64,000 nt of DNA from an uncultured Candidatus Saccharibacteria bacterium (GTDB lineage: Bacteria; Patescibacteriota; Minisyncoccia; Phycocordibacterales; UBA5272): NCBI GenBank assembly GCA_964635125.1, contig CAZWMQ010000002.1, forward strand, positions 47,591 through 111,590, read 5' to 3'. Each line of letters begins with the position of its first letter. Position 1 is the first letter of the stretch. The notes below the pieces were generated by a model that ran no database searches, was not told the DNA's origin, and worked only from the letters and a program-made list of their open reading frames with translations. Below are positions 1 through 58,323 of the stretch, piece by piece. The translations under genes were made by a program, and so were the position numbers.

Positions 1-39
1 CCTTACTATTTTGAATATAAAATTATTTTAACTAAAAAA

Positions 40-960
40 TTTAAAAGCCCCATGTAAAAACATGGGGCGTGAAGCTAACAGGCATCGGACTGATTAAAAA
101 TTATCAAGTTACCCCCACCTTGAGAACAAGGAGGGTTAGTTACTCTAAACTGCCTATGCGAAAATACTTGCTTTATTAAGCATAACATATTTATAGAAAA
201 ATCCAATCTTATAAATCTAAAATAAAAAAACCTAATGTAGAAACATTAGGTTTTTCCTTTAAAATTGCCTTGTCTTCTAACAACTAAAATAGAATATACA
301 ATAAATTAAATTAAATAGCAAATAAAAAATAAACCGCTTGTAGAAACAAGCGGTAGACGAATCGAGATAACAACTGCTGCTGATTAAGACATAGTTAGTA
401 TAACATATTATAAACAACTAATATAAAACCCCTCCTTTAGACAAAGGTGTGGTTGTTTTCCAAACTTTAACTTTAACTGAACTTGTGAAATCAAATCTAA
501 ATATAACATAGTATAAACAAAAAATAAACCTCCCCTAGACAAGGGAGGTTTCACAAACCAAAAACTCTTTGATATGAAAAGTAAAACTATATTAATAATA
601 ACAAATCTTTAAAAATTAATCAATAGAAAAACCCTCCTGGAAAGGAGGGTAATCTTTACACATTAAAATTCGTACCTATGAAAAACTAATTTCAGTATAT
701 CACATATCAAAATAAAAAGAAACATAATCCTCTCATAGAAACCAAGGGATTTTAATAAATCTAATATAAATAACTAAATATATTGCAACATAATAAAAAA
801 CCACCTGTGGAAACAGGCGGTATTCGAAATCAATTCACTTAATAAACCCATAATTAATTATAACATGATATATAAAATAAAAAAGCCCTGTGGAAACAGG
901 GCTCGCTTATTAATCCAATATCCTTTGAAAAACCAGTAATAAATCTAGCAAATATTTATA
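40..960 (-). repeat. tandem array of ~9 mini transcription units, period ~75-110 bp; each has an extended -10 box, a 35-50 nt variable segment and a GC hairpin with covarying stem and conserved YUUUCYA-type loop followed by a U-tract
   Basis: Hairpins at ~47-68, 111-137, 229-252, 334-353, 427-454, 527-550, 631-650, 725-752 (weak), 801-820 and 885-902. Stem sequences all differ but stay complementary. 801-820 pairs perfectly only as minus-strand RNA (G.U). Every hairpin is preceded on the + strand by an A-run, which is a U-tract after the hairpin on the - strand. Minus-strand TGTTATA(A/C/T)T-like boxes lie at ~180-191, 291-300, 399-409, 500-511, 596-605, 696-706, 782-791 and 860-869. The same extended -10 is found upstream of rplJ and rpsA. 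Confidence 0.6.
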
Positions 961-977
961 AAATAGTCAAGTAAGGA

Positions 978-2246
978 TTATTTATAAATTTCTTTAATAT
1001 TTTCAAGCATATTTTTTATATTGAAATTATTTTCAATATTTTCTTTTGCCTTTTCTCCCAACTTTCTTCGTAAACTTTTATCTTTAATTAATTTTAATAA
1101 AGCCTCCTTCATCTCATAAATATTTTTATTTTCCACCAATAACCCAGTCTGATTATTTTTAATAATTTCTTTAACTCCACCAGTGTCTGTAACTACAGCT
1201 GGCAAACTTAGAAGCCCAGCTTCAAGTAAGACATACGGCAAACCTTCTTTAATTGATGGTAAAAAATAAATCTGAGCTTCCTTAAGATAATTCTGATGAT
1301 TTTCATCACAAATCAATAAATCTACATAATAATCTAGATCGAGATCTAAGATTAATTTTAATAAATTATTTCTCTCTTCTCCGCCAAATGAGACTATTGT
1401 ATATTTAAAATCCTGAAATTCATCTTTTAATAAGCTGATCGCTCTTAATCCATAATCAAAGCCTTTATTCTTAGTCAATTCTCCAATCGAAACAATTTTG
1501 ACAATTTCATTCTGCCCAGTATCTTGATTTGTATTTCGTATTCCTTCTTGAGCCATCTGACTTGTAGCTTGTAATCTGAAACTTGTTTCTTGAAGCTTAT
1601 AGCTTGAATCTTGTGTCTTAAGTCTTAAAGCTTTTGTCTTGTCTCCGTCTTGCATCTTAAGACTAGTTTCCTGTGACTTGCTACTTGAAGCTTGCAACTT
1701 GTCACTTGCAACTTGAACCCCATTATGTATCATTATTAATTTAGCTTTATTGACTAACCACCAATTCTTAACATCATTATAATCTTTCTCTGAAACACAG
1801 ATAACTTTATCTGATAATAATATCGTAAGCCAAGAAAAAAACTTTATTAAAATAATACTTAGATAATTTCTATCTTCTCGAAATGGCCAACCGTGAGCAG
1901 TAAAGATTATCTTTTTAACTCTAGCTAATCTTCCAACCATCGCTCCAATTATCCCCATTTTTGAACTATTTAAATGAATAATATCTGGCTTAATTTCTTT
2001 TAATAATTTATAAAGTCTAATCAATACTCTTAATTCTTTAAAAATATTTATGTCTCGCGTCAAATTAGATATATGATAAGTCTTAATATTTTCTCCTTTC
2101 AACTTTTGATATAATTCACCATAACCACCACAAGCTACTTCTATCTCAAAGTCACTTTTAACTTTAGCTAGATTTGTCGCTAAATCGTATACATATTTCT
2201 GAGCTCCGCCCCAATTACTTTTAGTGATGAGATATAAGATTTTCAT
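978..2246 (-). CDS. glycosyltransferase family 4 (GT-B) with a ~55-aa low-complexity inter-domain insert encoded by a heptanucleotide (CTTGNNN)n tract
   Basis: N-terminal 'MKILYLITKSNWGGAQKYVYDL' and C-terminal 'KEGLPYVLLEAGLLSLPAVVTDTGGVKEI' GT4 motifs. Insert 'KLQETSFRLQATS...' at nt ~1560-1730. Confidence 0.75.
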   Translation of the reverse strand: MKILYLITKSNWGGAQKYVYDLATNLAKVKSDFEIEVACGGYGELYQKLKGENIKTYHISNLTRDINIFKELRVLIRLYKLLKEIKPDIIHLNSSKMGIIGAMVGRLARVKKIIFTAHGWPFREDRNYLSIILIKFFSWLTILLSDKVICVSEKDYNDVKNWWLVNKAKLIMIHNGVQVASDKLQASSSKSQETSLKMQDGDKTKALRLKTQDSSYKLQETSFRLQATSQMAQEGIRNTNQDTGQNEIVKIVSIGELTKNKGFDYGLRAISLLKDEFQDFKYTIVSFGGEERNNLLKLILDLDLDYYVDLLICDENHQNYLKEAQIYFLPSIKEGLPYVLLEAGLLSLPAVVTDTGGVKEIIKNNQTGLLVENKNIYEMKEALLKLIKDKSLRRKLGEKAKENIENNFNIKNMLENIKEIYK

Positions 2247-3662: not shown

Positions 3663-3681
3663 ATTTAAATTATAAAAATAT

Positions 3682-4812
3682 ATGCACGAAAAAAATTTAT
3701 TTCTAATATATCTAGGTAGAACAGGCTCTGGTCCTAGAACAACTCTAGATTTATCAAAAGAAATATTATCAAGAAAAGAAATAAAAAATTTTGATCTATT
3801 AATATCAAAAAATAATTCTTTGATAAATGAAACTCTCTCTATTAAAAAAGATTCTTTTATATTAGATACTCCTATCTCTAATAGAGATTCTATTCTAAAA
3901 TTACCAAAATTTATCTTTAAATTTATAAAAATTTTAAGAGTTGCTAAAAGAAAAAAAGAAAATAATTTTTTCTTTGTTATGACCCATATTTGGAACCCTA
4001 TTTGTATGATATTAATAAAAATTATTATACCAAAATCTAATATTTTTTTTATTGTACATGATGTAGAAATTCATCCTGGAGATAAAAATTCTAAATTGCA
4101 ATATTTCATAATGCAGGTTGAAATATTTTTATCAAATATAATAACAGCCCCTTCTCAGAACACTAGGCAGAAATTATTAACGAAATGGAAAAAGAATATA
4201 TTTATAACTCCTTTGCCGGTATTCGATTTTGGAGAAATCAAAGAAATAAGAAAAATATCAAAAATAACAACATTCCTATTTTTTGGTAGAATTGTAAAAT
4301 ATAAAGGACTAAATTTATTCTTACAAGCTTTAGAAATATTTGATAAAGAGGTGCAAAATAAAAATTATAGAGTAATAATTGCTGGTGAAGGAAAAATCGA
4401 ATATAATGAATTTAAAATTATTGAAAAATTAAATCATGAGGAACAAAAAATAATAATAATTAATAGATATTTAGAAGAAAAAGAAATAGGAGATATCTGG
4501 GATGAATCTGATATTGCGATAATATCCTATATTGAAGCTAGCCAATCTGGTATTGTGGCATTATCTATAAACAAAGCTATGCCGTCAATCATAACACCTA
4601 TAAAAGAATTAATAGATCAATGTGAAGCTAATGATATAAATAATACTTTTGCATTAATAGCAAAAGATCTTAGCCCAAAATCTTTTTCTGAAAAAATGAT
4701 AGAAATATTAGATGAAAAAATCTATGAAAAATTATCTAAAAATGCAATAAATATGCAAAAAGGTACTGGATTTAATGAGTGGGTTAATATAATTATAGAA
4801 AATTCTATATAG
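3682..4812 (+). CDS. glycosyltransferase (GT4-like C-terminal domain)
   Basis: 'FFGRIVKYKGLNLFLQALEIF...YRVIIAGEG' Glycos_transf_1-like. Confidence 0.6.
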   Translation: MHEKNLFLIYLGRTGSGPRTTLDLSKEILSRKEIKNFDLLISKNNSLINETLSIKKDSFILDTPISNRDSILKLPKFIFKFIKILRVAKRKKENNFFFVMTHIWNPICMILIKIIIPKSNIFFIVHDVEIHPGDKNSKLQYFIMQVEIFLSNIITAPSQNTRQKLLTKWKKNIFITPLPVFDFGEIKEIRKISKITTFLFFGRIVKYKGLNLFLQALEIFDKEVQNKNYRVIIAGEGKIEYNEFKIIEKLNHEEQKIIIINRYLEEKEIGDIWDESDIAIISYIEASQSGIVALSINKAMPSIITPIKELIDQCEANDINNTFALIAKDLSPKSFSEKMIEILDEKIYEKLSKNAINMQKGTGFNEWVNIIIENSI

Positions 4813-19124: not shown

Positions 19125-19380
19125 AAATAATTATTTTTATTTCGCTAAGATTAAAATCTTAGCGACTAATTTCTAATAAACAAAAATCTCTCGTTAAACG
19201 AAAGATTTGAGGTAAACTTTACAAGACTTAAGACCTAAGCTTCAAGACTAAAGATAAATTCTTATGTCTTAAGTCTTACTTCTTTTGACTTGTTACGACC
19301 TCCGTGAGCTTATGTTTTGAGGGCTTTCGCCCACTCACTTCTTTGGTTTACTTATATAGTATAACATATCTCAGCTATTT
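19125..19380 (-). promoter_or_regulatory. rplJ leader with promoter (extended -10 'TATGTTATACT' at ~19368-19377 on the - strand) and structured leader
   Basis: The -10 matches the consensus seen in the 1-960 array. Leader hairpin 'GTGAGTGGGCGAAAGCCCTCAAAACATAAGCTCAC'. Long imperfect palindrome of AAGAC/GTCTT heptamers at 19200-19290. Confidence 0.5.
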
Positions 19381-19878: not shown

Positions 19879-19995
19879 TCTGTTCTCCCGAATAGCTACT
19901 CTTGCTAATTAAAGCTACCATCGCTCTATGAAGTCTTCACGATCCAGTTCGGAATGAGATGGTGTGTTACCCTTCATCCAAATCAGGAGAACAGA
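19879..19995 (-). rRNA. rrf: 5S rRNA
   Basis: Reverse complement aligns with bacterial 5S ('CCGAACTGGATCGTGAAGAC', 'GATGGTAGC...GAGTAGC'). Helix I 'GTTCTCCTGA'/'TCGGGAGAAC'. Confidence 0.8.
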
Positions 19996-21695
19996 AAACT
20001 CAAAAGAGATTGGAGAGAGAAGCGGAGTCGAACCACTACCTTCTCATAAATTATTATTTCGTAGTTACTTTTCAGATGGTAACTCGGATAGAATTAATAA
20101 ACTTATGTGATGTCCTAACCGTTAGACGAGCTCTCTTCAATCTTTTGAGTATAAAATCCTATAATGATGTGAGAAGTTTTACTTCTCAATTCGAAAAACT
20201 AAATAAAAATCAAAATAAATTTCAATCAATAACTAGTCTTCCGAATTGAAAAGTAAAATATATAAAAATAATTAATGATAAACATATTTCCTAATAGGAT
20301 ATGGGTATTAGTAATCCTCAGCTGAATGCATTACTGCACTTACACTTAGACCCTATCAACGTAATCATCTCTTACGACCCTTATAGAATACTTATCTTGA
20401 AGTTGGCTTCGTTCTTAGATGCTTTCAGAACTTATCCATTCCCGACTTGGCTACTGGGCGATCCAGCTAGCGCTAGAGCCCACACACCAGAGGTCAGTTC
20501 ATCTCGGTCCTCTCGTACTAGAGATAAATCTTCTCAATATTCCAAACGCCTGCAGTAGATAGGAGACCAACCTGTCTCACGACGGTTTGAACCCAGCTCG
20601 CGTATCTTTTTAAATGGCGAACAGCCATACCCTTGGGAGCTTCTTCACCCCCAGGATAAGATGAGCCGACATCGAGGTGCCGAACTCCACCGTCGCTATG
20701 GACGCTTAGGTGGAACTAGCCTGTTATCCCCGTGGTAGCTTCTATCCGTTAATCTTCAACTGCATCTAATGCAAATTGTCGGTTCACTATGTTCTACTTT
20801 CGTATCTGCTCGACATGCCCGTCTTACAGTTAAGCCAGTTTATGCCATTACACTATCGGCACGGTTTCCATTCGCGCCTAACTGACCTTAATAAACCCCT
20901 CCGTTACTCTTTAGGAGGGTACCGCCCCAGTAAAACTCCCCACCAGATACTGTCTCTCAACGTTTTTTCCGTTGAGGTTAGTGTTTGCCAAGTTACAGAT
21001 GGCTATTTCACTGTCGACTCCATGACAACCGAAATCGTCACTTCAAAGTCTCACCACTATACTACGCAATAAATTAACAAACACAATACCAAGCTAGAGT
21101 AAAGCTCACGGGGTCTTTTCGTCTAACTGCAGGTAGGCGGCATCTTCACCGCCACTGTATTTTCACCGAGCTACTCCCTGAGACAGTTCCCCAGTCATTA
21201 CACCATTCGTGCACGTCTGAACTTACCAGACAAGGAACTTCGCTCAACTGTTCCTTTAAAAGTTGGACTCTATCTTCATCTTTCTTTTACAAGTTAAGAT
21301 GCGTACCGCTGGTCTCTAGTTAGGTACATTGACGCATAATATATTTCTATAAGTGCGGGTAGCTTTATAAATGGTTAATGAATTTAAAACTATTTCCTAA
21401 AACAATCACGACACTAATCTTATCGTCCCAATCATTTCAGATACAAATAATATTTATATCTGAAACCTTAGGACGATTATAGTTATCGCCGACATTGACG
21501 GGGGCTTATATCAGTCAGCCACATGGCAAATTCAAAGTTAGTCCAAAATAAATTTTAAACGCTTTAAATCCACCATGTGACCACCGATATTTGACCTTCC
21601 CGCATTGGTCAGGTGTCACCCCATATACATACTCTTACGAGTTCGCATGGAGCTGTGTTTTAGATAAACAGTTGCCAGAGAAACTTTCGCTGCGG

Positions 21696-22087
21696 CCCAC
21701 ACTATAAAGCTCTCTTTAAATCTTCAAAATCTAAAGAGAGAAAATAGGGTGCCGGTAAATTGGTACTACTCAATAATGGATCATACTGAACGTTACTCGT
21801 ATGATTAGGCTTTTTTTCTTCCGAACCCCAACTTCAAAGATTTCTTTTACAAGAAATAAATCCATTGTTTGTCGAACAAAAATGCTATTACTTTCAACAT
21901 GACTGTGATTGCATATTGAAAAACATTTCTGACGGAGGTGTTTCGCTTTCCTATCAACACCTCGTAGCGTTTACTAAAACTCTGCAGTTCTAGCTGATCA
22001 TTTAAGACCATTTCTCATTATTAACTAATCTCATACCAATTCCCGAGCAATACTTTCAAGCTCATAAAAAGAGCTTTATAGTGTGGG
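21696..22087 (-). repeat. 392-bp insertion in 23S flanked by perfect 18/19-bp inverted repeats
   Basis: 'CCCACACTATAAAGCTCTC' at 21696-21714 and 'AGAGCTTTATAGTGTGGG' at 22070-22087. Confidence 0.55.
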
Positions 22088-22691
22088 CAAGCCTTATTGC
22101 TAACTTACGGCTGCTTTTTTGCCTAGTTCCTTGGGGAGAAATCACTCGTTCGCCTTGGTCTACTCGACCTGAATACCTGTGTCGGTTTGCGGTACGGACT
22201 TATATAAATTTAAAGTATTGCGGATTTTGTGAATAATGTATCCTAGATGACTAGCTACATTATTCACAAAGCAATATCTACTATTCAGTAGATGTAGAAA
22301 CTTTTCTCGGCACAGTGCTCCTTTATCTTCACCGGTATTGCTACAAGCTTCACTTCATAACTCTCGGTATTCAAGAACTGATTTACATGCTCTTGCCAAT
22401 CATTACAAAGACCACAATCTGATAAGTGGCATAAAATACAACCATGCGTCATTCCATCACATTTATACAAGGTAAAGGAATATTAACCTTTTGTCCATCG
22501 CCTACGGCTCATCGCCATCGGCTTAGGCCCGACTAACTCTTCGCTGACAACCATTGCGAAGAAAACCTTATTCTTTCGGCGTGGGGGGATCTCACCCCCA
22601 TTGCGGTTACTTGTGCCAACATTCGTACTTCTACACGCTCCACGGCGGGTCACCCCTTCCGCTTCATCGCAGAGTAGAACACTCGTCTACC

Positions 22692-22836
22692 GATTGTAAT
22701 TTTCACAAGAAAGAGAAATAACTATTTACTAATTAGGGCGAAGGTCTGACTAATAAATTTATTAAAAAATAAATTTATTAATTCTGCTTCCAAACTATTA
22801 GTCATAATACTTATCTCCCTTGTGAAAATTACAATC
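22692..22836 (-). repeat. 145-bp intervening sequence in 23S flanked by perfect 18-bp inverted repeats (helix-45-type IVS)
   Basis: 'GATTGTAATTTTCACAAG' at 22692-22709 and 'CTTGTGAAAATTACAATC' at 22819-22836. AT-rich interior with a duplicated 12-bp palindrome 'AATAAATTTATT'. Lies ~1.2 kb from the 23S 5' end. Confidence 0.6.
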
Positions 22837-22911
22837 CCTAAACTTCGGTGATATGTTTGAGTCCCGATCATCTGTGGCGCAGAATCTCTCGATGGGTGAG
22901 CTGTTACGCTA

Positions 22912-22946
<35 letters not shown>

Positions 22947-23520
22947 CATTGTCAATGAAATTCCACCTCCTCACTTACACTTAACATATACTTAGGGACC
23001 TTAATTTTAGATCTGGGCTGTTTCCCTTTTGACCACCGGAGCTTCGCCCCCGGAGTCTTACTGCTAGACTATTAAACTTTGGTATTCGGAGTTTGATAGG
23101 TATTGCCGTATTTCTACTAGTCAAGACCTTCCAGTGCTCTACCCCCAAAGCGAACATCTAACGCTATTCCTATAAATATTTCGACGAGAACCAGCTATTA
23201 CCAAGTTCGATTAGCTTTTCACTCCAACCCACAAGTCATCCAAAAGAGTCGCACGACTTACTAGTTCGGGCCTCCACTTATCTTTCGACAAGCTTCGCCC
23301 TGCTCATGGGTAGCTCACCTGGCTTCGGGTCTTTATTATTCAACTATTATTTCGCGCTATTCACACTCGCTTTCGCTTATGACTCCATCACTTTATACGA
23401 CTTAGTCAGCTGAATAATAAAACTCGTTGGCTCATTCTTCAATAGGCACGCAGTCGAGGTGCAAGCACCTCTCCTACTCTTTGTAAACATATGGTTTCAG
23501 TTCTATTTCACTCCCCTCCC

Positions 23521-23564
<44 letters not shown>

Positions 23565-24454
23565 ACTCAAGGAATATTTAGCCTTACCGGTTAGTTCCGG
23601 CAGATTCACCCGAGCTATTCGTGTCTCGAGTTACTCAGGATAAGAGATAAAAAAGAGTTAAATATTTCGAATACGGGACTATCACCCTCTTTGGTGCTAC
23701 TTTCCAATAGCTTATACTATAAATAACTTTTGTAACTTTCCTAGATAATTCTACATCTCTTCCCTACAACCAACTTAGTATTACTACTAAGAATTTGGGC
23801 TTCTCTGTTTTCGCTCGCCGCTACTTGCAGAATAACATTGTTTTCTTTTCCTGTGGGTACTGAAATGTTTTACTTCCCCACGTACGCTTCTAAAGATATG
23901 CTCCCTAGATTCCAAGACTTTACTCTTGGAGAGTTTCCTCATTCAGATATCTTCGGATCGAAGGTTAAAAGGCACCTCCCCGAAGCTTATCGCAGCCTAA
24001 TCACGTCTTTCATCGCTTCCTTGAACCAAGGCATCCACCTTATGCTCTTATTTCCTATTAGGAAATATATTTACCATCTTTATTTTTAACACCGCTGTCA
24101 AAAATAAATATTATTTTTATACAGTGTCTATATTATTCTCATAATATAGACTTACCTTTATTTTCACATCTATATACATTGCCTGAAAAGACCCCAAGAT
24201 ATTTGGGATATCAAATTGTGCAATGCTATAGGATTCTATTGACAAATAACTTGTCTAAATTTTTGAAAATAAAAACCGCTTTTTAAGCGGCGACTAAAAA
24301 CACTTTTTAGAAGCTGCTTAATTTTTCTGTTTTAAATTCAACATATTTAGGTCTTTCAATATTAACATAATGGAAATAAAAATGCAAACCAATCTGATAT
24401 CTAATTGCTAGTATCTAGTTTCTAGTTAAAATAACCTTTCTAGATAACTATAGG

Positions 24455-53313: not shown

Positions 53314-56300
53314 TTAATTCTGAGATAATGCTTCGGATGTAGTGTTATCGTTTAATAGAATATTATTAACAAATCCCCTAGTTGACCAGAAAAAGTTTCC
53401 AGTTCCAACTCCATTTGTAATTCCTACATTAGTTAAGATTGATGGATTAGCTTCTTGATAAGTTTTCAAAGCATTCCAAGTCATATATCCGAAATAATTA
53501 GTCTCTTGCCCTAATGAACCAGGACCAGTTTCAGCTAATTTAAATCCTTTTAGATTTAAGAACTTTTGAAGAGCTTTGACTTCGTCTCCTATTGAACCTA
53601 ATTTTAGATTTTGGGTAAATTGATAAGCTGTCGCTCCTAATACTGACCCATTTCCTCCATTTGTAGTTGTTTGAGGTGGAATAAATATTGAGCCTCCACT
53701 AAAAGTCTGAGGAGTTGAAGTTGGATTACCGCCGCCGCCGCCGCCATTTTCCTCTACTCCTGTAATTGATATGTTTGTGCTAGTAGAGCTAGTTGCTCCA
53801 TCATTATCAGCTACAGTAAGTACTACATTATAATTCCCATTACTAGTATAAGTATGGCTTGGATTTAATCCTAAAGCACTATTACCATCTCCGAAATCCC
53901 AATTTAAATCAGAAATTGTTCCGTCTGTATCAGTTGAAGTATTTGTGAATAGTATAGTTGGATCATTAGAATTATCTACAATGAAACTCGCAATAGGGCT
54001 ATTGTTCTCATCGCCTTCGCCTTCTCCATCTCCACCATGATTACTGGTAACATTTACATCATAAGTTGATTCGTTACTCTTGTTGTTAGCTTTATCGACA
54101 GCAATTAGATGTATAGTATAATCGCCACTTTCTAAATCAGAAACATCAAATCCTCCTAACTCAACCGAACTAGTTGAGCTTCCAAAATTTGTCGCTCCAT
54201 TTGCCCAAGTAGTTACACAATTACTATTTCTAGTTCCTCCGATTTCTGTACTATCATTTTTCTTAGTCAACCAACAATAATAATAATTTAAATTAATGTC
54301 AGTTATATACCCAGAAAAAGCTTCTACATCGTCTGTTTGAGTAGCTGAGGTAATTTGAGCAACTGGTTTAATATTATCAACAGTTATCTTCCATAGATCG
54401 CTCCAAACACTTTGATTATTAGAACTATCAACGGCTTTGACTCTCCACCAATAATTAGTATCACTAACATTGGTAGCAGTCTTACTGGTGGTGCTATATT
54501 CTCCATGGAATCTTAAACTAGAAGCTGTGGAATTGTTATAACTTTCATAAATATAATGATCAACATCATCTGAACTATCACTCCAAACTTGAGTTATGCT
54601 TGCTCCATTAACTACGGAATTATTAGCTGGGCTCACTAAAAGTGGTTTAGCTGGGGGATTAGTATCAGGCATAGTCAACACAAAACTACTAGTCCAACCA
54701 GGGTTATAAGTATTTCCAGCCATATCAACTACATTAGCATTAGCACTATAAGTTCCTGATCCACATAGAGAACTAGTTGCATTTACATTATATATAGAAG
54801 AAATATCGTATTGTTTAGATCAAGATGAGCTTGTGCTAAATGGAGAAGTTATAAGATTAAACAAAAACCCTCCGCAACGAGCATTTATATTACTATTAAG
54901 TAATTGAAGATATACTCTATTCAAAGCTAAATTATCAGTTGAAGTTCCACTAACTGTAAATTTACCATTAACTACCGGACTAACACTAATAGTTGTAAAA
55001 GGAATAGTGTGATCGTAATAATAATGAACTGATGGACTCCAACCTCCGATGTTACCGGCCTTATCAATTCCTCTTACCCAGATAGTAACCCCTCCTTCTT
55101 CATTTGGGCCTGGTTGATGTCCTCTTGAAGTTCCGTTAACATCTCGACATCCTACCCATTTACCATTGATAGTAGTGGTTGCTGAACAAGTTGAGTCTCC
55201 AAAAGTATGTCCGTCATCATATTGGTAAGCGACTTGATAATGATCAATCTGTTCAGGATTTCCATTTATATCTTTGGTGATTGGATTCCAAGAATCATTA
55301 ATTGGGGTAATCCTAAACCATTGTCTTTCTCCTGGAGTTAAGATAGTGGTTATAGCTGGAGCAGCTGTATCAGAATTAAGTACTAAATTGTCTCGTACAG
55401 TTGACCCATTTCCTGCTTGATCAAATGGTACAGCAGTTACAGTAAATTGTCCCCCATTAACTACACCAAGTTCTTGTAATTTCTGAGCTGGGAATGTATA
55501 GTTAAATGTTCCGCTAGCATTACCTTTAACTATACCGAGAGCATAATGATAACCATAATCTGGATGAGTATTATGATAATAATAATTATAATTATAACTA
55601 TACCCATTACCAGGAGAAAGATACAACATAATATGATCGATACCGCTCAAATTATCAGAATATGTCCCCGTAACGGTTAAGTCATTATTGGTACTAACAT
55701 GACTCCCGGCATTTGGTCAAGTAAAAGTAACAATTGGGTCAGTGATATCATAATTAATTATAGAAGAAGTAGACCAGTCTGAAGTTTTATCATTATCTCC
55801 AACCGATCTAACTCTAAATACTCAAGGAGCTTCAATTCCTTTTGGAGTTGTTCCAAAAGCTTGATTTGGAATGCTGGTTATATTACCTAAATTTTCTGGG
55901 CTAGATCAAGTCAATCCACCATCTTTCGAATAAGAGTAATCGTAACTAGCGATTGGTTCTGGAGTAGTAGTTGGATTAGATCAGCTTGGGGTGATTAGAT
56001 CAACATTAGTTGAAGTAATAGAATGATTGGTACTATTTAGTCAAACTAAGTTGATTGGGGCAGATGGTGCTGGTGTTTCAAATGTATATTCTTTACACCC
56101 GGCTACTATTTTAGTAATTGTGTAATCGCCTAAGACCCCGCTACCAAGACTATATCCAATCGCTAAAACTTTAGCATTTGGAAATCTATTTAACCATTCT
56201 TCTGCTGTTCCAAACCAATTACTTCCATTTCCTCCTCCGGTATTTGGAGCATTATCTTTTACAAATTGCTGAGCACTATTTGATAGCCACCAATTATTTC

Positions 56301-58323
56301 CATAAATAGTTTCTCCGACTAAGATTCCGTCGGGGGTTCCGTCATTATTAAAATCTACAACTAATTGAGAGCTCGGAGCAATACTTCCAGAATTAGTTAT
56401 ATAATTAATAGTATCTGAAATATTATTAGTTCCTAGATCTTTTAGATCAAAATTAGTAACGAAATACCCTGCAGCCTTATCTGTAGAGGTGTTTCCTTCA
56501 GTCCAAATATGTAACCCGTTAGAAACAATCTGATTATGCCCTGTGGCTCTAGTCTCTGATAAATCCCATGTTGATAAATCAGTTGTTACAACTTGAGTAG
56601 GATTAGTACAGACATTTATTAATATTGGTTCGAAGTCATACTCATCATTAACGGTTGTAGTAATAACATGAAAATCATCAACATTCCCTGTAAAATTTGT
56701 CCAACCACTCCCTGCCTTAAATCCAACGGCTTGAAGTGTTCCGAGATTAATTCCTATATTTGGATAAAGAGCTATTAATTGAGAAAATGTACATGGATTA
56801 GATTGAGAACAATTATTATTGAATAAAGTTGATGCTTTGGATAGCCATCACTTACCATTTACAGCATTCCAAGTCTGCCATTGATTATCAGTAACTGTAC
56901 CATTTAAATATGGTTCATATACTAATCGACCTTGCCATCCTAAATTACTATCAGTAACATCTTTTGTTATATTTAACTGAATAGATGGAGCAATCGTATT
57001 ATTACCACTTTGGACATAAGTTGAATAATCTATTGTAGAAATGTCTGATAACTTTGTTCCACCATATTGTGGAAGTGCAACTAAATATCCCTCTCCTGAA
57101 GTAGCGACGGATATTTCTAAACTCCCAGATCCTAATGGTGCAGTAGCTGGTCCATTAACATAGTCTGCACTTCCGCCATTTCCATTATCATCGATTGGAG
57201 TTCATCCATGTAAATCTCCAGGTTTAACTATAATCATATTTAGACTTGGGGTAGTCGTCCCGCTTCCAGATCCTCCACCACCACCGCTAGAAATTGGGTC
57301 TGTAGTCTCAGTAAGTGTCGAACTAGTGGCAAAGTTAGTCCCGTCAGTCGCTACTACAAACATGGCATAGCTAGTAGAAGCTGTTAAACCAGTAATAGCT
57401 GAGCTTGTAGAAGTAGTAGAACCATAAGAAGCTCCATCCTTAAATACTTCGTAAGAAGTAGCTCCAGATACATCATTCCAATGAAGTACAAAAGAAGTCG
57501 AAGTTAAATTAGACACATATAAGTTCGGAGCAAATAAAGTCGAACTTGAAGTAGTAGCTGCCGCTAAAGTAGTCTCTTCTAAAGAAGCAATTCCTGATAC
57601 ATTTCCAGCATTATCAAATGCCGCCACAGTTAAAATATAAGTAGAAAAAGCAGTTAATCCAGAAATTGTAAAGTTAGTGTTGGTTGTAGTTGCAATAGTT
57701 GTGCTAGCCGAGCTTTGTAATTTATAACCTACAGAATAATAAGCTATACCGCTTCCAGTATCTATTGAAGGATCTCAAGTTAATCCGATAGAATTACTAG
57801 TAACAGAAGTCGTAGCGAAATTAGCTGGTGTAGATGGGGCAGTATTGTCTACAGTAGAAGTAGAAATTAAATCTCCAGTTAAAACAACATTAGAAATTAT
57901 TGCATTATCAAGATTAGAAGGATTCCCTAACAATCTAAAAACTAAACTGAAATTACTATTAGAAGAAGTAGCATTATATGGTATAGATATACTTATATGC
58001 CCGACTTCACTAGAAGAAGTAGTTCCGGTCTCACCTTCGATACTACCAAGAGATTGAACCTTAGCCGCACCAGTATCAATATTATATCCATAATCTAAAA
58101 AATCTCCTGGTTCTAAACTACGAATATCATAATCGAAAGATAAATTTAAATTATTATAAAGACTAGTATCGGTAGCAATCTTTTTAAAACCGGCTGGGCC
58201 AGTTATAGTTGATGATGCTGTTTGATTAATTAAAGTTGTTCCACCTGTTGCTAAAGCATAATATAAAGATATACCGGCAACAGCAGTAAGAACAATTCCA
58301 AAAATTGATAATATTTTTTTCAT
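53314..58323 (-). CDS. giant (~1669 aa) secreted surface protein with signal peptide, FN3, PKD and a C-terminal peptidoglycan-binding domain; at least 10 in-frame TGA
   Basis: Track ORFs 57775-58323, 57202-57627, 54820-55650 and 53314-54723 share one frame across TGA. The 57775-77 and 54820-22 junctions were checked codon by codon. Between 55651 and 57201 the - strand carries many TGA codons. FN3 'FAPNLYVSNLTSTSFVLHWNDVSGATSYEVF'. PKD 'DLNWDFGDGNS'. PG-binding 'LKLGSIGDEVKALQKFLNLKGFKLAETGPGSLGQETNYFGYMTWNALKTYQ'. TAA stop at 53314-16. Confidence 0.55.

What the first reader, a model, noticed from the sequence alone, without database searches (positions are those of the whole stretch)
40..960. 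Tandem array of ~9 promoter / variable-insert / terminator mini-genes with covarying hairpin stems
The 3' flank of the glycosyltransferase gene holds a ~97-bp-period array, all on the - strand. Each unit has three parts:
- an extended -10 box TGTTATA(A/C/T)T, the same motif found upstream of rplJ and rpsA;
- 35-50 nt of unit-specific sequence;
- an 8-12 bp GC hairpin followed by a U-tract.

The stem sequences all differ but stay complementary (hairpin 801-820 only with a G.U pair on the - strand). The loops stay similar: UUUCCA, UUUCUA, UUUUUA, UUCC, GUCU. That pattern is covariation of an RNA structure, not recent duplication.

No unit encodes a plausible peptide. One unit (137-191) carries two hairpins.

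The layout recalls a CRISPR array turned inside out: constant promoter and terminator frame, variable payload, and each unit separately transcribed. I know of no described system with this architecture. Candidate roles:
- a family of small regulatory or guide RNAs;
- a decoy or insulator stack;
- a novel defence or addiction module whose protein partner lies outside the window.
Basis: seen in the sequence. Interest (0 to 1): 0.9.

Follow-up and report, generated by a model that had tools for sequence, protein, structure and literature searches.

The report
Tandem cluster of small-RNA genes
The 900 bases after the glycosyltransferase gene hold about ten tiny, separately transcribed small-RNA genes; at least one belongs to an RNA family shared with uncultured phages and resembling the Bacteroides FopS/GibS translational repressors, so this is a known kind of regulator in a new lineage (candidate-phyla-radiation bacteria) and a new tandem layout.

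Summary
On the - strand of window 35-950 there are 10 units, 74-111 bp apart. Each has an extended -10 box, 25-45 nt of body and a GC hairpin with a T-tract.

The units are not a CRISPR-like novelty.
- Unit U1 (934-874) is a full member of an RNA family I call type A: 5' UUUUCAUAGGAUA..., then a hairpin with apex GUUUCYAC, then a U-tract. A covariance model built only from IMG/VR viral contigs finds U1 at 55 bits (E=2e-9).
- The type A seed resembles Bacteroides FopS/GibS, experimentally characterised sRNAs that pair across start codons of Shine-Dalgarno-less mRNAs. It stays far below the Rfam threshold for that family.
- A second family, type B, links viral contigs to related Paceibacteria.
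- Those relatives carry 1-4 such units at the same place, between the GT4 gene and tRNA-Trp. The window holds a lineage-specific expansion.

Only U1 and weakly U4 have bodies with demonstrable relatives. I found no targets, protospacer-like matches, partner protein or conserved peptides. This genome almost lacks Shine-Dalgarno sequences, which fits start-codon-targeting sRNAs.

Verdict: a tandem cluster of FopS-like sRNA genes, a new variant of a known kind. No expression data exist.

The parts
874..950 (-). U1. The -10 box TGCTAGATT lies at 950-942 and the predicted RNA starts about 934. Seed GGUUUUUCAAAGGAUAUUGGAUUAAUAAGC. Hairpin 904-883 (GAGCCCUGU-UUCC-ACAGGGCUU), followed by U6. This is the type A, FopS-like member.
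   Evidence: The viral-only covariance model R2 scores 55 bits, E=1.8e-9. 22 of 23 bases match L008 unit 1. Terminator. Fold.
794..865 (-). U2. The -10 box TGTTATAAT lies at 865-857. The body is 29 nt. Hairpin 821-800 (ACCGCCUGU-UUCC-ACAGGUGGU, one G.U pair), followed by U6.
   Evidence: z -3.3. Covariance models match only the hairpin half, 24-27 bits. The body has no significant relative.
712..792 (-). U3. Weak -10 box TGTTGCAAT at 792-784. Imperfect hairpin at about 750-725, then a T-rich tail. Probably a decaying unit.
   Evidence: Sequence read. The fold is no better than shuffles (z +0.78).
626..702 (-). U4. The -10 box TGATATACT lies at 702-694. The body starts with AGUUUUUCAUAGG, the type A seed start. 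Hairpin 650-631 (ACCCUCCU-UUCC-AGGAGGGU), followed by U5.
   Evidence: R2 gives 26.8 bits and R1 28 bits, both aligned over the full model length. Twelve bases are identical to L008 unit 1 (p about 0.045). Terminator.
520..603 (-). U5. The -10 box TGTTATTAT lies at 603-595. The body contains ACUUUUCAUAUC. Hairpin 551-526 (loop GUCU), followed by a U-tract.
   Evidence: z -2.9. R2 scores only 17 bits, E 0.74.
424..508 (-). U6. The -10 box TGTTATATT lies at 508-500. Hairpin at about 455-428 with two mismatches (loop GUCU), followed by U4.
   Evidence: The fold is not better than shuffles (z +1.3). The visual resemblance to type B is not significant.
326..405 (-). U7. The -10 box TGTTATACT lies at 405-397. 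The body contains AGCAGUUGUUAUCUCGAUUCG. Hairpin 354-333 (ACCGCUUGU-UUCU-ACAAGCGGU), followed by a U-tract.
   Evidence: z -3.3. The type B model R3 aligns over its full length at 23.9 bits, E 0.002. It may be a diverged type B unit.
220..302 (-). U8. The -10 box TATATT, preceded by TG without a spacer, lies at about 302-294. Hairpin 257-224 (core CCUAAUGU-UUCU-ACAUUAGG) is flanked by A5 and U7, so it could terminate in both directions.
   Evidence: z -4.3. Covariance models match the hairpin half at 26-28 bits.
108..187 (-). U9. The -10 box TGTTATGCT lies at 187-179. The body contains UAUUUUCGCAUAGGCAG. Hairpin 137-111 has one mismatch (loop UUCU) and no adjacent U-tract.
   Evidence: Fold z -1.3. 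The claimed second hairpin is not supported.
35..106 (-). U10. The -10 box TGATAATTT lies at 106-98. The body is 23 nt. Hairpin 68-47 (GCCCCAUGU-UUUU-ACAUGGGGC), followed by a U-tract. The promoter TGCTAGAAT and tRNA-Trp(CCA) follow just beyond the window's left edge.
   Evidence: z -4.7. Logan contigs L001-L003 extend past position 1 and show the tRNA-Trp.
978..2246 (-). Upstream neighbour, not part of the array: a GT4 glycosyltransferase gene. It is the last gene of a surface-polysaccharide cluster, and U1 starts 28 nt after its stop codon.
   Evidence: Pfam families listed. The synteny Bac_transf - GT4 - units - tRNA-Trp - C39-like peptidase recurs in L084, L085, L005, L008, L011 and L095.

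Best explanation
The region is a tandem cluster of about ten independent small-RNA genes on the - strand.

**How each unit is built**
- Each unit is transcribed from its own extended -10 promoter, which needs no -35 box.
- Each gives an RNA of roughly 50-75 nt: an unstructured 5' body followed by an intrinsic terminator.
- The terminator hairpin has a conserved apex, G-U-UUCY-A-C.

**Likely mechanism**
- The RNAs most likely act in trans, as the Bacteroides FopS/GibS sRNAs do.
- The 5'-terminal seed (U1: GGUUUUUCAAAGGAUAUUGG; UUUUUCAU is the antisense of AUGAAAAA) would pair across the start codon of mRNAs that lack a Shine-Dalgarno sequence and block initiation.
- The terminator hairpin, U-tail and conserved apex would serve as the stability or protein-binding module.

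**Origin**
- The cluster arose by duplication and divergence, and possibly phage-mediated import, of one to a few ancestral units between the GT4 gene and tRNA-Trp.
- Some copies (U3, U6, U9) look as if they are decaying.

**Shown versus inferred**
- Shown: the anatomy, the strand, family membership of U1, covariation of the hairpin, conservation of the locus in relatives, presence of the families in viral contigs, and the near absence of Shine-Dalgarno sequences.
- Inferred: transcription, trans-action by base pairing, and the identity of targets and of any protein partner.
For: **Anatomy and strand**
- 8 terminators against 0.7 expected, all on the - strand.
- 9 extended -10 boxes on the - strand and 0 on the + strand, against about 2 expected.
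- Predicted RNAs fold as a free 5' region plus a hairpin.

**Family membership**
- The pattern TTTCAWAGGATA...GTTTCYAC recovers about 15 viral contigs with the same layout.
- The type A hairpin covaries: 96% of cells paired, 7 of 9 pairs with changes on both sides, 42 such cells against 13.5 in shuffles.
- Model R2, built from viral sequences only, finds window U1 (55 bits, E=1.8e-9) and L008 units 1 and 3 (62-66 bits). In 1.16 Mb of Patescibacteria DNA every hit with E<0.1 lies in a GT4 to tRNA-Trp spacer.
- Type B occurs in 27 viral contigs, with 98.9% of cells paired. Its viral-only model R3 finds L005 unit 4 (56.8 bits) and L084 unit B (43 bits).

**Purifying selection**
- The GT4 proteins of the window and L008 are only 46% identical. 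The U1 seeds nevertheless match at 22 of 23 bases while the stems differ.

**Link to FopS/GibS**
- RF04319 aligns over its full length to L008 unit 1 (19.5 bits) and to the L133 element (15.9 bits).
- The FopS consensus matches L008 unit 1 at 22 of 25 bases, p<0.0005.
- FopS-10 and GibS RNAs start GUGUUUUUCAUAGUAUUAG.
- Those sRNAs pair across start codons of Shine-Dalgarno-less mRNAs, and the family is also seen in a phage.

**Fit with this genome**
- Only 3 of 56 genes have a Shine-Dalgarno-like motif. About 9 genes start (A/G)UGAAAA.

**Arrays elsewhere**
- Viral contig L138 carries its own array of 5 units of mixed type.
Against: **No expression data.** Promoters and terminators are consensus matches only.

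**Weak link to FopS.** The Rfam FopS model scores far below its gathering threshold (16-20 bits against 56). It did not report window U1 at E<=10. Seeds aimed at AUGAAAAA could resemble each other by convergence.

**Most bodies are orphans.** Only U1 (p<0.003) and U4 (p about 0.045) have relatives. Family status of the other eight units rests on the promoter frame and the hairpin apex.

**No target found.** None of the 56 translation initiation regions in the window pairs better than with shuffled seeds.

**No partner protein found.** No RRM-type (RbpB-like) protein is encoded in the window or the fetched loci.

**Different context in phages.** In some viral contigs the element has no promoter of its own. 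It sits directly after a tmRNA or between two tRNAs, so there it could be merely a 3' trailer and terminator.
Confidence: 0.6

Rival explanations
1. The RNAs work mainly through protein binding rather than base pairing. The invariant hairpin apex (GUUUCYAC), perhaps with the conserved 5' motif, would be the recognition site of an RNA-binding protein. The array would then be a multi-copy sponge or decoy that titrates that protein, or competes with phage-encoded copies of the same RNAs.
For: The apex is conserved across type A, type B and the window units while the stems vary freely. In this window it distinguishes these hairpins from ordinary gene terminators. FopS sRNAs are bound by RbpB, which counteracts their repression. 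Many copies in a row suit a titration role. No base-pairing target was found.
Against: No candidate protein was found: there is no RRM motif in the window or the fetched loci. Invariance of the apex in my alignments is partly forced by the search patterns used. UUCG-like tetraloops closed by strong pairs are also simply good terminator caps. The 5'-terminal anti-start-codon seed matches an experimentally proven pairing seed.
Confidence: 0.15
2. The array has little or no present function. It would be a pile of promoter-plus-terminator cassettes (RNA 'morons') dropped by phages or produced by slippage next to a tRNA gene. It would be kept at most as a transcriptional insulator between the polysaccharide operon and tRNA-Trp, with most copies decaying.
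For: Copy number at this locus varies from 0 to 10 among relatives. U3, U6 and U9 have degraded hairpins or tails. Eight of ten bodies have no detectable relative. The same cassettes occur in viral contigs. The sequence after tRNA-Trp differs between otherwise identical contigs, which suggests a recombination hot spot.
Against: The U1 seed is conserved at 22 of 23 bases between genomes whose flanking protein is 46% identical. Stems keep pairing through compensatory changes. Seven units retain both a good -10 box and a strong terminator. One terminator would be enough for insulation.
Confidence: 0.13
3. The units are leaderless mini-genes for very small peptides, because this genome often places the -10 box 5-15 nt before the start codon.
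For: Genes here are largely leaderless or lack Shine-Dalgarno sequences. Read from the sequence: U2 has ATG 5 nt after its -10 box (25 codons); U10 has ATG 12 nt after its -10 box (14 codons, stopping in the T-tract); U6 and U8 have TTG starts.
Against: U1, U4, U5 and U9 have no start codon in the right place, and U7 would encode 2 residues. The candidate ORFs run through the terminator hairpin in different frames. In the conserved families the variation is compensatory at the RNA level and shows no reading frame. ORFs on the opposite strand starting at the conserved CAT are 1-49 codons long and unrelated.
Confidence: 0.05
4. The units are separately transcribed guide RNAs of an RNA-guided defence or addiction system whose protein lies outside the window.
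For: The layout is a constant frame with different bodies. Relatives of the units occur in phages.
Against: Bodies with detectable relatives are conserved across genomes instead of being variable. No body matches GenBank phages, or (sense or antisense) the rest of the window and the 170 fetched loci, beyond chance. There are no identical repeats. The closest characterised RNAs are ordinary regulatory sRNAs.
Confidence: 0.03

Closest known systems
FopS (family of paralogous sRNAs, Rfam RF04319) and GibS of Bacteroides thetaiotaomicron
   Same: [quoted passage not shown]
- Many paralogues per genome, and the family is also seen in a phage.
- The RNA starts G(U)GUUUUUCAUAG... (FopS-10 and GibS: GUGUUUUUCAUAGUAUUAG; L008 unit 1: GGUUUUUCAUAGGAUAUUGG; window U1: GGUUUUUCAAAGGAUAUUGG).
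- The host lacks Shine-Dalgarno sequences.
- The genes sit in or near glycan and cell-surface loci.

   Different: - The Rfam score is far below the family threshold (16-20 bits against 56).
- The phylum differs: Patescibacteria rather than Bacteroidaceae.
- The genes are packed head to tail in one array instead of being dispersed.
- Promoters are sigma-70 extended -10 boxes, not Bacteroides-type.
- Most units have unrelated bodies.
- No RbpB-like protein or susC-like target is known here.
NsiR1 of heterocystous cyanobacteria (tandem array of about 60-nt sRNA genes, each with its own promoter and terminator) and other multicopy sRNAs such as LhrC1-5, Qrr and csRNAs. This comparison rests on my own knowledge.
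   Same: Tandem repetition of complete promoter-sRNA-terminator units at roughly 100-bp spacing. This shows that the architecture is not unprecedented.
   Different: The copies in those arrays are clearly homologous along their whole length, whereas here the bodies have diverged beyond recognition. There is no sequence relation: Rfam NsiR1 does not match the window.
Phage 'morons' and tRNA-cluster small RNAs (independent promoter-gene-terminator cassettes between phage genes). This comparison rests on my own knowledge.
   Same: In viral contigs the same RNA units occur as free-standing cassettes, as an array (L138), or embedded after a tmRNA or between tRNA genes.
   Different: The cargo here is a non-coding RNA, and the chromosomal array is not inside a recognisable prophage.
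CRISPR arrays, including type II-C arrays with a promoter in each repeat
   Same: A periodic layout with a promoter-like element in every unit.
   Different: There are no identical repeats. The hairpin stems differ between units. The bodies are not phage-derived. The best-conserved bodies are shared between genomes. I did not search for cas genes.

Membership tests
Rfam RF04319 BTncRNA_FopS | Score at or above the curated gathering threshold (56 bits) of the family covariance model | tested here: not met
   L008 unit 1 scores 19.5 bits (E 1.7) and the L133 element 15.9 bits (E 1.8), both aligned over the full model length. Window 1-1200 gave no FopS row at E<=10.
Rfam RF04319 BTncRNA_FopS | 5'-terminal single-stranded seed (R1/R1') GUGUUUUUCAU(A/G)GUAUUAGAU | tested here: inconclusive
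   L008 unit 1 matches the consensus at 22 of 25 bases with 2 gaps (p<0.0005). L127 and L132 give p 0.002-0.006. Window U1 gives p 0.02 and U4 p 0.012. The FopS-10 and GibS primers confirm the 5' end GTGTTTTTCATAG. The match is similar but not identical, and convergence is possible.
Rfam RF04319 BTncRNA_FopS | [quoted passage not shown] | tested here: met
   The architecture is described.
Rfam RF04319 BTncRNA_FopS | Bound by the RRM protein RbpB; represses susC-like mRNAs at the start codon | not testable with these tools
   No RNP-1 motif ORF occurs in the window or the fetched loci. No significant target was found among 56 initiation regions. Only about 64 kb of the genome is available.
Type A phage/Patescibacteria sRNA family (defined here, models R1 and R2) | Significant match to a covariance model built without the sequence under test | tested here: met
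   For U1, the viral-only model R2 gives 55 bits, E=1.8e-9, full length. U4 gives 26.8 bits, E 0.0045, full length. U2, U7, U8 and U10 match only the hairpin half (E 0.003-0.07). U5 gives E 0.74. U3, U6 and U9 are not detected.
Type B phage/Patescibacteria sRNA family (defined here, model R3) | Seed UUCUCAUAAGCAGUUAGUUUUGG plus a hairpin with apex GUUUCUAC | tested here: inconclusive
   Clear members lie in relatives: L005 unit 4 (56.8 bits) and L084 unit B (43 bits). In the window only U7 aligns over the full length, at 23.9 bits, E 0.002.
Intrinsic (Rho-independent) terminators | GC-rich stem-loop followed by a T-tract on the transcribed strand | tested here: met
   8 sites against 0.7 expected, all on the - strand.
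CRISPR array | Near-identical direct repeats separating unique spacers | tested here: not met
   TRF finds no array. The repeat finder reports only copies that are 73-89% alike.
CRISPR array | Spacers derived from mobile elements | tested here: not met
   No body has a match beyond chance in GenBank phages or in the window and the fetched loci.
CRISPR array | Adjacent cas genes | not tested
   The neighbours are glycosyltransferase and polysaccharide genes and tRNA-Trp. The rest of the window was not scanned for cas domains.
REP-like / genome-wide dispersed repeat | Many copies scattered through the genome | tested here: not met
   The hairpin class and the covariance-model hits are confined to 35-950 within the 64 kb. 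The rest of the genome was not available.

The most novel reading that the evidence does not exclude
These units could be modular RNA cassettes: a free 5' seed plus a universal terminator handle with apex GUUUCYAC. They would circulate between phages of Bacteroidota-type hosts and episymbiotic Patescibacteria. The chromosomal array would be a weapon or shield in that traffic. For example, it could reprogramme translation of Shine-Dalgarno-less mRNAs in a partner or host cell. Or it could mimic or titrate phage-encoded sRNAs and their binding protein. That would make it an RNA-level conflict system rather than housekeeping regulation.
Probability: 0.1. Interest if true: 0.9.

Novelty: new variant of a known kind. 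Interest (0 to 1): 0.58.

Why it matters
To my knowledge almost nothing is known about post-transcriptional regulation in candidate-phyla-radiation bacteria. If these units are expressed, several things follow.
- They would be a first family of trans-acting sRNAs in Patescibacteria.
- They would extend a FopS/GibS-like design (a start-codon-targeting 5' seed in organisms that lack Shine-Dalgarno sequences) well beyond Bacteroidaceae.
- They would show that two sRNA families are shared between uncultured phages and a distant bacterial lineage, which points to phage-borne spread of regulatory RNAs.
- The array gives ten natural variants of one frame for testing what the conserved terminator apex does.

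If they are not expressed, the region is only an unusual stack of promoter and terminator relics.

Tried and rejected
- **Rfam on the array.** At E<=10 on 1-1200 only chance-level rows appear. At gathering level on the window only rRNA and tRNAs are found.
- **Hairpin clusters next to GT4 genes.** A scan of 80 Patescibacteria loci found no comparable dense array except in close syntenic relatives.
- **tRNA-Trp as an anchor in metagenomes.** There were 22 loci; most have rpmG upstream and no units, and only L093, L095 and L099 were informative.
- **GenBank phages and PLSDB plasmids.** Neither the type A nor the type B consensus has a match in GenBank phages, and the type B consensus has none in PLSDB plasmids (type A was not run there), so the families are confined to uncultured sequences.
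- **Literature search by sequence strings.** Nothing relevant.
- **Target search.** RNAduplex of ten seeds against 56 initiation regions gave nothing better than shuffled seeds.
- **Protospacer or antisense search.** Only chance matches of 12-16 nt, apart from homologous units.
- **Coding on the opposite strand.** ORFs starting at the conserved CAT are 1-49 codons long and unrelated. This rules out a 5' UTR plus gene start and a type I toxin-antitoxin reading.
- **Anticodon-arm or T-loop mimicry.** Rejected by inspecting the sequences: the loop is 4-6 nt, not 7.
- **Pseudoknot between UAGGA and the loop UUCUA.** Considered but not supported. U1 has CAAAGG with loop UUCC, which would not covary, so I did not pursue it.
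- **attP/attB reading** (tRNA adjacency, contig variation after tRNA-Trp). Rejected because similarity between genomes is interrupted by covarying stems instead of being one identical core.
- **RRM partner search.** An RNP-1 motif search found nothing.
- **Types B and C for U6, U2 and U7.** The visual resemblances are not significant in shuffle tests.
Full report
**What is there**

The window comes from an AT-rich (about 29% GC) Patescibacteria/Paceibacteria genome.
- Homologues of the adjacent GT4 glycosyltransferase all come from such MAGs.
- The 23S rRNA carries about 850 extra bases.

Read on the - strand, the 950 bases after the GT4 stop codon (978) contain ten units.
- Terminator-like hairpins are strongly enriched: 8 found against 0.7 +/- 0.9 in shuffles, all on the - strand.
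- Extended -10 boxes (TGnTAnnnT) occur 9 times on the - strand and never on the + strand, against about 2 per kb per strand in the window.
- The exact motif TGTTATAnT is also enriched window-wide, 17 matches against 6.7 expected.
- Tandem Repeats Finder sees no repeat, so the units are old and diverged.
- Predicted transcripts of 49-78 nt fold as a mostly open 5' part plus a terminal hairpin. Seven of the ten (U1, U2, U4, U5, U7, U8, U10) fold clearly better than shuffles. U3 and U6 do not, and the U9 hairpin lacks an adjacent T-tract.
- The hairpin class has tetraloop UUCC, UUCU, GUCU or UUUU, usually closed by G-U...A-C. It is not used by other terminators in the 64 kb.
- Identical Logan contigs extend beyond the window edge. 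They show that the array is followed, on the same strand, by the promoter TGCTAGAAT and tRNA-Trp(CCA).

**Relatives at the same locus**

No close relative of this species exists in the protein collection; the next GT4 is 55% identical. More distant Paceibacteria still keep the synteny Bac_transf - GT4 - spacer - tRNA-Trp - C39-like peptidase. Their spacers hold one to four units of the same build:

| Locus | Units in the spacer |
|---|---|
| L085, L011/L093, L095/L099 | 1 |
| L084 | 2-3 |
| L005, L008 | 4 |

The window's ten units are therefore a lineage-specific expansion.

The first unit after GT4 in L008 reads GGTTTTTCATAGGATATTGGATT. Window U1 reads GGTTTTTCAAAGGATATTGGATT, a match of 22 out of 23 bases. 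The flanking proteins are only 46% identical and the two hairpin stems differ. Neutral intergenic DNA would not survive like this.

**A wider family, shared with viral contigs**

A degenerate pattern for this seed plus the hairpin apex found the same element in about 15 IMG/VR contigs with GC 0.33-0.51. I call it type A: UUUCAUAGGAUA(A/U)(G/U)G..., a short spacer, a stem, GUUUCYAC, the matching stem, and a U-rich tail.
- In a 15-sequence alignment the 9-bp hairpin is 96% paired. Seven pairs change on both sides, giving 42 such cells against 13.5 in shuffles. Shifted registers collapse to 36-57% paired.
- The two invariant blocks are partly imposed by the search pattern. The stems are not.

As an independent test I built a model from the 12 viral sequences alone (R2).
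- In 1.16 Mb of Patescibacteria DNA it finds L008 units 3 and 1 (66 and 62 bits) and window U1 (55 bits, E=1.8e-9).
- It then finds weaker hits to U8, U4, U7, U2 and U10 and to units in L005 and L084.
- Every hit with E<0.1 lies in a GT4 to tRNA-Trp spacer.

A second family, type B (UUCUCAUAAGCAGUUAGUUUUGG plus the same apex), occurs in 27 viral contigs.
- It covaries equally well: 98.9% paired, 7 of 9 pairs.
- Its viral-only model R3 finds the unit immediately upstream of tRNA-Trp in L005 (56.8 bits) and L084 (43 bits). In the window only U7 aligns weakly.

The contexts in viral contigs vary.
- L138 has its own 720-bp array of five units (A-like, A, another type, B, another type). Each sits behind a repeated promoter-like box.
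- In L133 the element directly follows a phage tmRNA. In L137 it sits between tRNA-Met and tRNA-Trp.
- Neither family occurs in 50,697 GenBank phage records, and type B is absent from PLSDB plasmids (type A was not run there).
- The L114 terminase has a 60%-identical relative labelled Chitinophagaceae. L133 shows a Bacteroidota-type promoter. At least part of these phages therefore probably infect Bacteroidota. This is an inference.

**Link to a characterised family**

In E-value mode Rfam aligns RF04319 (Bacteroidetes FopS) over its full length to L008 unit 1 (19.5 bits) and to the L133 element (15.9 bits). Both are far below the gathering score of 56.
- The printed consensus GUGUUUUUCAUgGUAUUAGAUUUAAGG matches L008 unit 1 at 22 of 25 positions, and no shuffle out of 2000 does as well. 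Window U1 gives p=0.02.
- The in-vitro transcription primers of the FopS paper show that FopS-10 and GibS RNAs start GUGUUUUUCAUAGUAUUAG. This matches the start predicted here, 7 nt after the -10 box.

What the papers report (PMC11697453, PMC7366714):
- FopS has 14 paralogues in B. thetaiotaomicron. [quoted passage not shown]
- FopS sRNAs pair near the start codon of susC-like mRNAs and repress translation.
- They are bound by the RRM protein RbpB.
- The family was also seen in a phage.
- GibS uses the same 5' seed, and Bacteroides mRNAs lack Shine-Dalgarno sequences.

The window genome also nearly lacks Shine-Dalgarno motifs (3 of 56 genes). Many -10 boxes lie 5-15 nt before the ATG, and about nine genes begin (A/G)UGAAAA, the complement of the UUUUCAU seed.

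I therefore read type A as a FopS/GibS-like family, with possible distant homology. It is not a member by the Rfam criterion.

**What could not be shown**
- Only U1 and, marginally, U4 have bodies with significant relatives. The other eight share just the frame.
- No initiation region in the window pairs with any seed better than with shuffled seeds.
- No body matches phage, plasmid or local DNA in either orientation beyond chance.
- No RRM-type protein is encoded in the available DNA.
- ORFs on the opposite strand that start at the conserved CAT are 1-49 codons long and unrelated.
- A few units contain possible leaderless mini-ORFs, read from the sequence. These lie in different frames through the hairpin and are absent from the conserved units.
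- The high pairing among the window's own nine hairpins (95%) is expected for any set of sequences chosen as hairpins. It is not independent evidence.

**Conclusion**

The finding is real and well described, but the interpretation as an unprecedented 'inside-out CRISPR' is not supported.
- The best-supported account is a tandem cluster of small regulatory RNA genes of the FopS/GibS type.
- The cluster expanded at a conserved locus next to a surface-glycan gene cluster and tRNA-Trp.
- At least two member families are shared with uncultured phages.
- The rival readings are a protein sponge, cassette relics or an insulator, mini-peptides, and guide RNAs. They are less likely but not excluded in the absence of expression data.

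Noticed in passing
window, all 56 larger ORF starts (e.g. 14553, 25771, 36905, 36988, 47190, 51008): The genome almost lacks Shine-Dalgarno sequences: only 3 of 56 genes have such a motif. Many genes have a TGnTATAAT-type -10 box only 5-15 nt before the ATG, which suggests widespread leaderless or very short-leader mRNAs.
   Followed up: partly
window 20289-24061 (-) and 19883-19990 (-): The 23S rRNA spans 3773 nt against a 2925-nt model, so it carries about 850 nt of insertions or an intron. 5S follows it, and no 16S is adjacent.
   Followed up: no
window 1561-1717 (inside the GT4 gene 978-2246): Tandem 7/14/28-nt repeats encode a low-complexity insert of about 55 residues rich in K, L, Q, S and T. 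This makes the GT4 protein 422 aa, against about 365 aa in its homologues.
   Followed up: no
L001 12351-12530 versus L002 4997-5005 and L003 3122-3130: Contigs identical through the array and tRNA-Trp diverge exactly at the tRNA 3' end: GCATCAAAG... against GCCAAAAAATAAT, where the contig ends. This suggests strain variation or an integration hot spot at tRNA-Trp.
   Followed up: no
window 19180-19366 (-): A TGTTATACT promoter is followed by a roughly 180-nt structured leader and a terminator-like hairpin (19208-19184). Rfam does not match it at gathering level.
   Followed up: no
window 55650-57202: A 1.5-kb stretch has no ORF of 90 aa or more. It lies between two ORFs that look like fragments of one large repetitive surface protein (54820-55650 and 57202-57627). 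This may be a disrupted gene or an assembly or frameshift problem.
   Followed up: no
L138 1225-1945 (+) (the same array appears in L147 on the other strand): A viral contig carries five consecutive small units, each behind a repeated box GGTACTATTAnnATAT(G). This may be a phage-specific promoter.
   Followed up: partly
L130 3334-3470 and L139 11547-11671: Two type A elements face each other on opposite strands, so their hairpins form a convergent pair.
   Followed up: no
L133 12757-13167 (+): A phage-like contig encodes its own tmRNA (tag GNTNVDLSDYTVESLFAELEGELALA) behind a Bacteroidota-type promoter (TTTG...TATATTTG). The type A element starts 3 nt after the tmRNA's 3' end.
   Followed up: partly
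L084 about 3670-3790 (+), downstream of tRNA-Trp: A short ORF resembling a GIY-YIG nuclease domain (MFYYMYIYILNCKDGFYIGCTNNLKDRIKRHKNGEVIATK, interrupted by a stop) lies between tRNA-Trp and the C39-like peptidase gene. The resemblance is judged by eye from the sequence.
   Followed up: no
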